From a plasmid: a DNA stretch of 64,000 bases. Position numbers: made by a program. The stretch lies in NCBI RefSeq assembly GCF_056746865.1, contig NZ_JBWKMP010000005.1; one strand, 5' to 3'. Of this stretch, positions 45,001 through 48,000 are shown one piece after another. The first letter of the stretch is position 1. Every line of letters starts with the position of its first letter.

Positions 45001-48000
45001 CACTTTCAATGAAGCCCTGCTGATTGGCAATTTGCATAGGGACAGGCGTCAGGTTTTTAGTCACAGCGGAGTTTTGCGTTACGACACTGACGCTGCCTTG
45101 TGACGACAGGGCTTTCAGAAATGCTTTTGAGCCAGCCAGCTTACCGTCCACGATGGATACACCACTGGTAATAACATTCTCGGCGGCATCACCAAATGAG
45201 CCACCAAGACTCAGACCAAGATGACCATCATTAAATACTGCGTTCCAGTCGATTCCCGCCTGTTCCTGGCTTGATTTCTTGATACTCAGGATTTCAACGT
45301 TCAGCACAACCTGACGACTCATTTCATTATTGCGCTTGTTCACAATCTCCTGAACGCTGTCCAGTACATCCGGGGTATCTGTTACTGTCAGTGAACCTGT
45401 GGACAGATACATGCGCCCTGTACCTGGTGTCAGCATTGAGGAAACTTCGCTTTTCAGGTCGTTGTACAGCGATGATTTCATTTCCACGGTTGTAGTTTGC
45501 GTATTTGATGCGTCGCCAGTCATACCGCCAGAACTTGTAGAGCCGGTACTGCCACTGGAAGACATTGTGCCGCTCACAACTTTTGAGTTGTATGCCACAT
45601 TGCTGTCCATATATGTAATCGGGAATGAGCGCGTTTCCAGATAGAAGAATGTGATACGACCTTTATCGTATTTCCAGGATATTCCCAGCCGTGAAGATAC
45701 GGTTTGCAGTAGGGCAGGAAGCCCGGAGATATTCAGCTCAGGGAGTGATGTACCGCCAGAAGAGACTTTTACTGGCTGACTGCCTACTGACGCCAGAGGA
45801 ACCATTCCATTTGCATCAGGTGCTGGAATTGAGCCTGTCATTTGTTGTGTTGAGCCAGTGCCTGTACCGTTCAGATAGGTCCAGACATCGGCGCTGATTC
45901 GTACCGGGATATGACAGGTTTGTGTGATGCGTTGTGCGATCTGGCGTAGCTCAATATCTGAACGAGTATTAATCACAATCGGGCAGGGCGGCGCTGATTG
46001 CTTTACCTGCTTTTCAATAATTGGCGTTGTATTAATCCATTGTTTTGTTGAGTCCTGGATAACCGGGTTATTACGAATTTTTTTCGCGTATTCAGTCGCT
46101 TTTTGTGCGTCTCTTTCGGCTGCAAGTTCATTAGCATTGATTTTTTTGAAGTTTGCACAGCCTGATAATAAAAAAGAGGATATTAATAAACAAAGCAATT
46201 TTTTATTCATATTTAATTAACTCCGGTACTGGAATGATAACTGTGCATCCTATTTCATCGTGAGAGCGGGTTAACGATATAACTGTGTCGAAAAGATTTT
46301 GTATCTGTACGCCGCCATCTGAAGGAGTCGTGACAACAATAAGACGTTTGCCACGTTTCCTGGCTGTTTTAATAAATCGAACAATAAACTGAACAACTTT
46401 TGATTCCCGTAAGTTGTTACCGATGGCTACACTATTAAGAACCAACGTTTTTTCAGGTGCAGATAAAAAGTCAAAATAATCAAAATTTTCATCGCAAAGA
46501 TAATGGTGTTTTAGAAGGGGAAGGTGTTCATGGCGTTTATAAATATCACAGAAATCAAAATATTTAACGTCAGTGTCATTGATTAGCAATTCTGCTAAAA
46601 GTGTTGATTTTCCAGTTCCAGTTTCGCCTATAATCAGAATATGTTTTTCAGAGTTTATCAAAACATCAATGGCTTCTTTCATCATATTCATATTCATATT
46701 CATATTCATATTTATCATATTCGAGTGTTTTATTCTCATAATAGAATCCTGTCTTTGCTAATCAATAGTATCTTTATTGCGAGGATTATTCAGATACGTC
46801 TGTTTTATCGTGATTATCAAGGTCTGGATTAGTAATCACATTGCCTCCGGCAACCATGACTTTTTTTCCTCCAGCTTTAGGGAGATAAATTTCTGCAATT
46901 TTTGCTATTTCATCCATGACTTCTTGTGTAAACAGGTTTGGAATGTCAACATGATTGTTACGGGCGATATCCACGCGGCGTTTAAACTCTGGTTCTTCAA
47001 ACCAGATTATTTTGTTGGCAATAAATGGTCGGCTAAATTCACTGGTTATAATTTCACGGATTGCAATATTTCTGGCTTTATTCTTCTTATCCCGGAGAGA
47101 CACAATTTCTTCAGGGAGAAGAACAGGACGTTCTATTATTTCATCATTTCGTGTGCGGGAGGTTCCGGTGTTTCCTCCACCGCTCGAAACAGAACGTTTC
47201 GAGATTTTCATATCTCGCACGCCAATCTCTTCTGAAATCTTTTTAGCCAGAGAATTTTTTGATTTCGGCGGATAGTAAAGCACAACACCACTGTTTTCAG
47301 TAAATGTGGTCCATCCTTCCTGACCGTACATATCGCTTTTTTGTCCTTGCCCTTCATTCTGAAGAATGAACACAAAGCGAAGGTTATAACCAGCTGTATA
47401 ACCAACAGCGCGTTCAATGACTTCAGATTTACCCATTGATGTAAACTCATCCAGGAGAATAAGGCACTGGTATTTCAGGTCCGGGTTATGTTCCGGCAGT
47501 TCACGACAGTTTTCATTAACCAGTAATGAGAAGAAAAGGTTTACAATTTTCTCATGAGTGATTAAGGCATCCGGTGTCAGACCAAGATAAATTGACATGG
47601 GTTTTTTACGAATATCCCGGATATCAAAATCACTGAAATTCGTCGCTTCAGCAGTAACAGGGTTGCTGAATATATTCAGTGGTGATGAAAAGTTCGTTTT
47701 TATACTTCCCCTTGTGCGATCTGGTGCTGACATGAACTCAAAGAAGAATGATTTTGTTTTATCGCTAATCCAGCTACGATTTTCAACTTCCTGTCCCATC
47801 CATGCGGCGAGATCTTTTCCATTATCGGGAATCGACGTTTTCAGTATGGCGCTGATGGAAACAAGGACGTCCGGTGCATTATGACCTTTGGCTTTCTGGT
47901 CCAGGTGAAAACGCTCCTTGTCCAGCAGGTAAAGCCCTAACCCGACAAAAAGGTTGCGTGCAGAATCAGACCATATAGGATCATCACTTGCCGGGATAAG

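What the first reader, a model, noticed from the sequence alone, without database searches (positions are those of the whole stretch)
46679..46715. Hexanucleotide simple-sequence repeat at the 5' end of pilM
Seen in sequence: (CATATT)5 on the plus strand encodes an N-terminal MNMNMNMNMNM tract; the same DNA also gives long His/Ile artefact ORFs on the opposite strand. Inference: slippage would change length in-frame (modulation rather than on/off switching).
Basis: seen in the sequence. Interest (0 to 1): 0.35.

Follow-up and report, generated by a model that had tools for sequence, protein, structure and literature searches.

The report
Variable six-base repeat, not in pilM
A perfect six-base repeat at the start of a small ATPase-like gene on an IncI2 conjugative plasmid gains and loses whole units between related plasmids, always in frame, but the gene is not pilM and nothing yet shows that the length changes matter.

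Summary
(CATATT)5 lies at 46683-46712; no comparable match occurred in 100 shuffles. On the minus strand it reads (AATATG)5 and encodes (Asn-Met)5 near the N-terminus of ORF 46203-46739.

Related IncI2 plasmids and metagenome contigs carry 2 to 7 units. Lengths 3-7 and 3-6 recur on two flank haplotypes, each identical over 620 bp. Two plasmids that are near-identical over 40 kb differ by one unit.

The gene is not pilM. It has no match to Pfam PilM. The real PilM is at 56796-57233. The tract-bearing gene encodes a 178-aa P-loop protein with a RecA/KaiC/DnaC-like predicted fold, from a very narrow family. It sits between the virD4-type coupling-protein gene and pilN, and about 13% of IncI2 plasmids lack it.

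Distant homologues start at the ATG of the last repeat unit, so the repeat and the nine codons before it are an IncI2-specific N-terminal extension. Only the first ATG has a Shine-Dalgarno-like element, so the tract is probably translated. It is predicted to be disordered.

The best reading is a slippage-prone, probably near-neutral length polymorphism, not a switch. Functional modulation is untested. A second variable repeat, (TTACTGAA)n, lies just upstream of virB11.

The parts
46683..46712 (-). Perfect hexanucleotide repeat, (AATATG)5 in gene orientation and (CATATT)5 on the + strand. It encodes (Asn-Met)5, residues 10-19.
   Evidence: Relatives carry n=2-7.
46713..46739 (-). Nine codons before the tract (MRIKHSNMI), including the annotated start ATG at 46737-46739 and a degenerate extra unit AATATG-ATA.
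   Evidence: PGAP starts the CDS here in every relative: CDS 519, 525, 531, 537, 543 and 549 bp for n=2 to 7.
46747..46750 (-). Shine-Dalgarno-like AGGA, 7 nt before the first ATG. It is the only such element serving any in-frame ATG of the region.
   Evidence: Duplex with the 16S rRNA 3' end is -4.1 kcal/mol here, against 0.1 to 0.4 for the ATGs inside the tract.
46680..46685 (-). ATG ATG (M19, M20). M19 is the ATG of the last repeat unit and aligns with the start methionine of all ten distant homologue clusters, so it is the ancestral start.
   Evidence: Alignment A1, invariant M19 and K21. Distant homologues have strong SD sites (-6.1 and -6.3 kcal/mol) directly before that start.
46203..46739 (-). 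The tract-bearing gene: a 178-aa small P-loop protein, named 'YfdA', 'ATP-binding protein' or 'sigma 54-interacting transcriptional regulator' in database records. It is not PilM.
46605..46628 (-). Walker A motif GETGTGKS, residues 38-45.
46786..48756 (-). Upstream neighbour: VirD4/TraG-type type IV coupling protein. Its stop codon is 46 nt before the first ATG.
   Evidence: Pfam T4SS-DNA_transf, 287 bits.
44567..46210 (-). Downstream neighbour: PilN secretin lipoprotein. Its start overlaps the end of the tract-bearing gene by 8 nt, so translational coupling is possible.
   Evidence: Pfam Secretin and Secretin_N_2. ORF coordinates. SD-like GGAG inside the 3' end of the upstream gene, -6.1 kcal/mol.
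46573..46832 (+). Two antisense ORFs (46573-46761 and 46641-46832) with Phe/Ile and His/Ile runs produced by the repeat. Treated as artefacts.
   Evidence: They lie wholly antisense to the conserved minus-strand gene and the virD4 end.
56796..57233 (-). The window's real pilM, listed for contrast. It is not part of the repeat feature.
   Evidence: Pfam PilM PF07419, 51.5 bits against a cut-off of 25. Annotated pilM at the equivalent place in relatives.

Best explanation
The feature is a coding microsatellite. (AATATG)n lies inside an IncI2-lineage-specific N-terminal extension of a small accessory P-loop protein. That protein is encoded between the coupling-protein gene (virD4/traG type) and pilN. 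The repeat unit includes the family's ancestral start codon, because the last unit's ATG aligns with the start of distant homologues. The tract therefore looks like an expansion of the 'AAT ATG' start-codon context. Translation now most likely begins at the upstream ATG (46739), the only one with a Shine-Dalgarno-like element, so the tract is read as (Asn-Met)n in a disordered tail ahead of the ATPase-like core. Replication slippage adds or removes whole 6-bp units. This produces alleles with n=2-7 that all stay in frame, so slippage cannot inactivate the gene or disturb the overlapping pilN start. The most likely consequence is small or none: a near-neutral length polymorphism in a dispensable gene, useful mainly as a plasmid typing marker. 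Shown: the tract, its polymorphism, its recurrence on identical flanks, the gene's identity, and the position of the ancestral start. Inferred: slippage as the mechanism, translation of the tract, and near-neutrality.
For: Tract and significance. Alleles n=2,3,4,5,6,7 were read directly in 32 loci, all differing by whole units. Spread sample of 60 of 516 PLSDB records: 32 rows have the window's span, and the others differ by +6, -6, -12 or -18 bp. In 232 complete E. coli genomes that carry the gene, 133 fall in the >=99% identity band (the window's length), 65 at 95-99% and 34 lower. 20 metagenome contigs: n=2:3, 3:2, 4:7, 5:5, 6:3. Recurrence: identical 620-bp flanks carry n=3-7 (12 loci), and a second haplotype, the window's own, carries n=3-6 (6 loci). 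pLR-60_3 and pLR-48_4 differ over 40 kb by only 2 SNPs, a shufflon inversion, this tract (5 vs 6 units) and another repeat. Loci L001-L004 and L011, with n=3-7, share identical PilN and VirD4 protein accessions. Four loci with an interrupted tract (AATGTG unit) all have n=4. Distant homologues (51-57% identity, 141-146 aa) start at M19. SD strengths. Residues 1-15 have pLDDT below 50. Predicted mRNA structure around the start is unchanged for n=2-10. The gene is absent from about 13% of IncI2 plasmids and carries other in-frame indels.
Against: No read-level data were available, so slippage within a population is inferred from differences between records. Near-neutrality is an argument from absence: no experiment or expression data bear on it. 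The gene stays intact in 30 of 32 loci, and no allele has n below 2, which could reflect some selection to keep the extension. The start codon has not been mapped experimentally. A promoter-like site (46765-46738) overlaps the first ATG. If it is used, it would produce a transcript lacking that ATG. The isolate samples are dominated by mcr-1 IncI2 plasmids and are not independent.
Confidence: 0.6

Rival explanations
1. Tuning knob. Tract length adaptively adjusts the amount or activity of the P-loop protein, through tail length or the choice among in-frame AUGs. Through the 8-nt overlap with pilN it would also adjust secretin and thin-pilus output. Plasmid populations would then carry graded conjugation phenotypes, analogous to the shufflon in the same plasmid.
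For: High allele diversity with recurrence on identical flanks. The tract is always kept at n>=2. The gene's end overlaps the pilN start. A second variable repeat sits just upstream of virB11 in the same transfer region.
Against: The tract is in a predicted disordered tail outside the conserved core. Predicted mRNA accessibility is flat across n. The gene is missing from about 13% of IncI2 plasmids, which PLSDB still types as conjugative. Four plasmid records from a mouse-gut series all keep n=4. The conserved Asp at the position I infer to be Walker B is Asn in this allele.
Confidence: 0.2
2. Untranslated leader or start-codon array. The real start is the ancestral ATG at the 3' end of the tract, or any tract ATG. 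The repeat would be an AU-rich, SD-less 5' leader, possibly on a transcript from the promoter-like site that overlaps the first ATG. The 'NM' tract would then be an annotation artefact.
For: All distant homologues start at M19. A sigma-70-like site, TTGATT-16-TATTAT at 46765-46738, would place a transcription start just downstream of the first ATG. Every unit supplies an in-frame ATG.
Against: The only SD-like element serves the first ATG, and tract ATGs have none. The promoter scan found fewer sites than the shuffles (1 against a mean of 4.1), so the single hit carries little weight. The upstream frame stays open in all alleles. That is weak evidence, because 6-bp units cannot close it.
Confidence: 0.12
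3. DNA-level element. The hexamer array would be a protein-binding site or promoter spacer, for example an AT-rich hexamer array of the Fur-box kind, that regulates the pilN-V operon.
For: A periodic AT-rich hexamer array about 470 bp upstream of pilN. This is resemblance only.
Against: By my hand count the tract matches only about 12 of 19 positions of the Fur consensus. It lies inside a coding region. No promoter-like site includes it. pilN in gene-less plasmids works from a different 41-bp spacer.
Confidence: 0.03
4. Assembly or sequencing artefact. The length differences would be errors in the records.
For: One record, L007 (p1002-MCR1), has indel errors nearby.
Against: Differences are always exact multiples of 6 confined to the tract. 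They appear in hundreds of finished plasmids, in 20 metagenome contigs from other assemblies (several named as SPAdes-style NODE contigs), and in several RefSeq protein accessions. The 30-bp tract is shorter than a sequencing read.
Confidence: 0.01

Closest known systems
In-frame coding microsatellites / VNTRs in bacterial surface and pilus genes. From memory, an example is the variable-copy small repeats at the N-terminus of Neisseria meningitidis PilQ.
   Same: Tandem units whose length is a multiple of 3, near the N-terminus. Copy number varies between strains without breaking the frame.
   Different: Here the unit is a 6-bp Asn-Met dipeptide in a cytoplasmic-type P-loop protein on a plasmid. 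No phenotype is linked to copy number. The comparison rests on recall and was not tested here.
Phase-variable contingency loci: SSR on/off switches of Haemophilus, Neisseria and Campylobacter (established knowledge).
   Same: A slippage-prone simple repeat at the 5' end of a gene, with recurrent length changes.
   Different: The unit length is divisible by 3 and all alleles are in frame, so there is no on/off switching. No evidence of high-frequency switching was found. Four records from one mouse-gut series all have n=4.
The IncI shufflon (Rci-mediated pilV rearrangement) in the same plasmid.
   Same: A source of variation in the plasmid's transfer and thin-pilus region. It also differs between the near-identical pLR-60_3 and pLR-48_4.
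   Different: The shufflon works by site-specific recombination and has a known effect on recipient specificity. The tract is passive slippage with no known effect.
'YfdA' / 'nSTAND3 domain-containing NTPase' / 'sigma 54-interacting transcriptional regulator', the database names for this protein in IncI2 plasmids.
   Same: Same protein: 99% identical cluster P0001 and a 619-member cluster P0002.
   Different: The sigma-54 name rests on a 45-residue Walker A match only and is probably a misnomer. The distant family members lie near the T4CP gene in other plasmids, lack the repeat, and are 141-146 aa long.
R64-type PilM (Pfam PF07419).
   Same: Only the position immediately upstream of pilN, which is where pilM sits in IncI1 R64 (from memory).
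   Different: No sequence similarity. The real PilM of this plasmid is at 56796-57233.

Membership tests
R64-type PilM (Pfam PF07419) | Significant match to the PilM profile | tested here: not met
   No PF07419 hit at E<=0.01 for the 178-aa protein. ORF 56796-57233 in the same window scores 51.5 bits against a cut-off of 25. BLASTP between the two gives E=1.1.
R64-type PilM (Pfam PF07419) | Encoded next to the PilL/TcpQ-like lipoprotein gene | tested here: not met
   The TcpQ-domain gene is at 57239-58474, next to the true pilM and about 10 kb from the tract.
Microsatellite / VNTR | At least 3 perfect head-to-tail copies of a short unit, more than chance would give | tested here: met
   5.2 copies, 100% matches. 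0 matches in 100 shuffles.
Microsatellite / VNTR | Copy number differs between relatives by whole units | tested here: met
   n=2-7 across 32 loci. Span differences are multiples of 6 in the PLSDB and E. coli samples.
Microsatellite / VNTR | Length changes recur independently of flanking substitutions (elevated mutability) | tested here: met
   Two 620-bp flank haplotypes carry n=3-7 and n=3-6 respectively. One unit differs between plasmids with 2 SNPs in 40 kb.
Phase-variable contingency locus (on/off) | Unit changes shift the reading frame or promoter spacing so that expression toggles | tested here: not met
   The unit is 6 bp and all alleles are in frame. No promoter-like site includes the tract.
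Phase-variable contingency locus (on/off) | High-frequency reversible switching within a clonal population | not testable with these tools
   No read-level data. Four plasmid records from one mouse-gut series (CP043182, CP043198, CP043200, CP043204) all have n=4.
P-loop NTPase (AAA+/RecA-like) | Walker A motif GxxxxGK[ST] | tested here: met
   GETGTGKS at residues 38-45, nearly invariant in the family.
P-loop NTPase (AAA+/RecA-like) | Walker B acidic residue at the end of a hydrophobic strand | tested here: not met
   The window allele reads LVLN. Distant homologues and one IncI2 allele read LILD or LVLD. Assignment of this strand (98-104 in the model) as Walker B is my inference from the AF2 model.
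P-loop NTPase (AAA+/RecA-like) | Fold similarity to solved P-loop ATPases | tested here: met
   Foldseek against PDB: RadA, KaiC, FlaH and DnaC at E of about 1e-5, TM-score 0.45-0.59 normalised to the query. The model's mean pLDDT is 71.5. The subfamily is not resolved.
Sigma-54-dependent transcriptional activator (PGAP name) | Full-length sigma-54 interaction AAA+ domain plus a DNA-binding domain | tested here: not met
   The Sigma54_activat hit covers only residues 14-58, matching profile positions 5-48 of 168, at 22 bits. The protein is 178 aa. No NCBIfam family reaches its cut-off.

The most novel reading that the evidence does not exclude
IncI2 plasmids, the main mcr-1 vectors, carry a small set of slippage-prone repeats in their transfer region: (AATATG)n in the coupling-protein-adjacent ATPase-like gene and (TTACTGAA)n just upstream of virB11. 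Together with the shufflon, these would act as heritable, reversible tuning knobs for mating-apparatus expression, so a plasmid population would hedge between transfer cost and transfer rate.
Probability: 0.08. Interest if true: 0.6.

Novelty: new member of a known kind. Interest (0 to 1): 0.27.

Why it matters
Practically, the tract is a ready-made length marker for telling apart otherwise near-identical IncI2 plasmids, the main carriers of mcr-1 colistin resistance. The second repeat upstream of virB11 could serve the same purpose. Both differ between plasmids that have only 2 SNPs in 40 kb. The work also corrects two labels: the gene is neither pilM nor a credible sigma-54 activator. Biologically, the tract would matter only if its length affected the ATPase-like protein or the coupled pilN. 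That would make it a plasmid-borne expression tuner, and there is no evidence for that yet. The apparent origin of the repeat, by expansion of the ancestral start-codon context, is a tidy small example of how an N-terminal extension can arise.

Tried and rejected
1. R64 (AP005147) could not be fetched for a direct PilM comparison because it is not in the collections. I used Pfam PF07419 and the window's own PilM instead.

2. Literature searches for IncI2 with pilM, yfdA or 'tandem repeat' found nothing on this tract or gene. The library is limited to open-access papers.

3. NCBIfam and PADLOC scans gave only Walker A-level matches and no family or defence-system assignment.

4. mRNA folding for n=0-10 showed no dependence of start-site accessibility on n for n>=2. 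I therefore rejected the idea that length tunes translation through mRNA structure.

5. The Fur-box or hexamer-array idea was rejected. By hand, the tract matches about 12 of 19 consensus positions.

6. No terminator-like site was found, and only one promoter-like site, fewer than in the shuffles.

7. I considered that the gene-less plasmids arose by deletion between the tract and the pilN start, which share AATATGAATA. I rejected this because their virD4-pilN spacer is a different sequence.

8. I considered that MRIKH derives from the pilN 5' end (MNKK). The similarity is too short and AT-rich to judge.

Full report
**1. The observation**

The window contains a perfect hexanucleotide repeat. 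Tandem Repeats Finder reports 46682-46712, period 6, 5.2 copies, 100% matches. The exact (CATATT)5 is at 46683-46712. None of 100 dinucleotide-preserving shuffles gave a match, even with three mismatches allowed.

The gene is on the minus strand. There the tract reads (AATATG)5 inside ORF 46203-46739, which begins MRIKHSNMINMNMNMNMNMMKEAID. They are simply the repeat read antisense.

**2. What the window and the gene are**

The region matches 516 PLSDB plasmids, nearly all typed as conjugative. Every record I fetched was typed IncI2, MOBP, MPF_T. The gene order on the minus strand is virB11 (48760-49815), a VirD4/TraG-type coupling protein (46786-48756), the tract-bearing gene, PilN secretin (44567-46210) and PilO (43206-44528).

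The tract-bearing gene is not pilM:
- It has no match to Pfam PilM.
- ORF 56796-57233 in the same window scores 51.5 bits on that profile and sits beside a TcpQ/PilL-like gene.
- The two proteins show no similarity, E=1.1.
- RefSeq annotation of relatives puts pilM at the equivalent distant place.

The protein has a Walker A motif (GETGTGKS) and otherwise only generic P-loop hits. Its nSTAND3 score of 30 bits barely exceeds the cut-off. The Sigma54_activat match covers only 45 residues. No NCBIfam family reaches its cut-off, and PADLOC gives only Walker A-level matches.

An AlphaFold model (mean pLDDT 71.5) has a P-loop core. It matches RadA, KaiC, FlaH and DnaC at Foldseek E of about 1e-5.

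The family is very narrow, with 30 clusters among 5.8 billion proteins. Its distant members (51-57% identity, 141-146 aa) lie a few genes downstream of the coupling-protein gene in other conjugative plasmids, with no pil genes nearby.

**3. Where the tract sits in the protein**

All ten distant homologue clusters start at the methionine that aligns with M19, the ATG of the last repeat unit. The nine leading codons and the repeat are therefore an IncI2-specific N-terminal extension. The repeat unit AAT-ATG contains the ancestral start codon.

In distant homologues that start is preceded by strong Shine-Dalgarno sites (-6.1 and -6.3 kcal/mol). In the window the tract ATGs have none (0.1 to 0.4). 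Only the first ATG at 46739 has an SD-like AGGA (-4.1). This favours translation of the tract, but it is not proof.

PGAP annotates the first ATG as the start in every relative. Residues 1-15 of the model have pLDDT below 50.

**4. Polymorphism**

Reading the tract directly in 32 loci gives these counts:

| n | loci |
|---|---|
| 2 | 6 |
| 3 | 3 |
| 4 | 8 |
| 5 | 9 |
| 6 | 5 |
| 7 | 1 |

All differ by whole units.

- **PLSDB.** In a spread sample of 60 of 516 records, 32 rows have the window's span. Two are +6, seven -6, three -12 and six -18. Two have other lengths, and eight lack the gene.
- **E. coli complete genomes.** 232 of 5,426 carry the gene, always on plasmids. 133 fall in the >=99% identity band, which corresponds to n=5, and the rest are lower.
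- **Metagenomes.** A pattern scan allowing n=1 to about 10 found 20 contigs: n=2:3, 3:2, 4:7, 5:5, 6:3. None had n=1 or n of 8 or more.

**5. Recurrence**

After removing the tract, 150 bp upstream plus 470 bp downstream define haplotypes. One haplotype (12 loci) carries n=3,4,5,6,7. The window's own haplotype (6 loci), two SNPs away, carries n=3,4,5,6. That implies at least seven length changes with no flanking substitution.

pLR-60_3 and pLR-48_4 come from one study. Over 40.2 kb they differ by two SNPs, a 574-bp shufflon inversion, one unit of this tract, and one 8-bp unit of another repeat. Loci with n=3-7 share identical PilN and VirD4 protein accessions.

Four loci whose tract is interrupted by AATGTG all have n=4. 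This fits stabilisation by interruption, but the sample is small and the four loci come from two closely related haplotypes. Four plasmid records from a mouse-gut series all keep n=4, so the tract is not wildly unstable in the short term.

**6. Does length matter?**

I found nothing to say so. Predicted local mRNA folding around the first AUG is -2.9 kcal/mol for every n from 2 to 10. Mean unpaired probability stays at 0.49-0.55.

The gene itself looks dispensable or under weak constraint:
- About 13% of IncI2 plasmids lack it and have a different 41-bp virD4-pilN spacer.
- Other alleles carry in-frame indels or internal deletions.
- One plasmid fuses it to a truncated pilN.
- The family-conserved Asp at the position I infer to be Walker B is Asn in the window and most IncI2 alleles.

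Against complete decay, 30 of 32 loci keep an intact frame.

**7. Conclusion**

The feature is a slippage-prone, in-frame coding microsatellite in an accessory P-loop gene of IncI2 plasmids. The gene name is wrong. 'Modulation' remains a hypothesis.

Rivals still open are a tuning role, possibly acting on pilN through the 8-nt gene overlap, and an untranslated AU-rich leader or start-codon array. A single weak promoter-like site overlapping the first ATG hints at the second. A DNA-binding-site role and an assembly artefact are unlikely.

I found no paper in the searchable library that describes the tract.

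Noticed in passing
window 49826-49841: A second polymorphic simple repeat. 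(TTACTGAA)2 on the + strand lies between the virB10 stop and the virB11 ATG (49815, minus strand), 10 nt upstream of that ATG. Relatives carry 2 (9 loci including the window), 4, 5 (2 loci) and 7 copies. It is one of only five differences between two plasmids over 40 kb. It changes the virB10-virB11 spacer length without changing VirB10.
   Followed up: partly
window 56796-57233 and 57239-58474: The real pilM (PF07419) and a TcpQ/PilL-like lipoprotein gene lie about 10 kb from pilN-pilV, separated from them by the virB genes. The IncI2 thin-pilus genes are therefore split into two blocks.
   Followed up: yes
window 46740-46785 and 46203-46739; L008 and L010 1160-1209: About 13% of IncI2 plasmids lack the tract-bearing gene altogether. 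They have an unrelated 41-bp spacer between virD4 and pilN, so the gene is a presence/absence cassette in this backbone.
   Followed up: partly
window about 46431-46433 (codon 103 of the minus-strand gene): The family-conserved Asp at the inferred Walker B position (LILD/LVLD) is Asn (LVLN) in the window and in most IncI2 alleles. Only the allele with the interrupted tract and a 15-residue deletion keeps Asp.
   Followed up: partly
window about 46500-46560 and the 3' end of the gene: The same small gene has other in-frame length variants in relatives: presence or absence of YKRHEH or a 15-residue segment, an LK duplication, and an IGCTV duplication.
   Followed up: partly
L009 (NZ_CP073005.1), locus 1-659: In one Klebsiella IncI2 plasmid a deletion fuses the N-terminal part of the P-loop gene to pilN. 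It removes PilN's first ~45 residues, where the lipoprotein-type signal sequence lies in the window's PilN. The product is annotated as a 653-aa 'PilN'.
   Followed up: partly
window 46860-47300 (3' part of virD4): The 301 bp around the tract are 100% identical to many plasmids, but the 1201-bp query reaches only 97.6% at best. Over 46150-46860 the window differs from L011 at only 2 positions. The window's VirD4 ORF is 656 aa, against 652 aa in relatives. This suggests a mosaic or recombinant virD4 end.
   Followed up: no
window 21270-21494: A long in-register tandem array: 18-bp unit x 12.5 copies, also readable as 54-bp x 4.2, consensus AGGAACAGGCTACAGAAC. Its gene context was not examined.
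   Followed up: no
window 5786-5837 and 10480-10543: Short 24-25-bp tandem repeats, 2 copies each, that could be iteron- or binding-site-like. Not examined.
   Followed up: no
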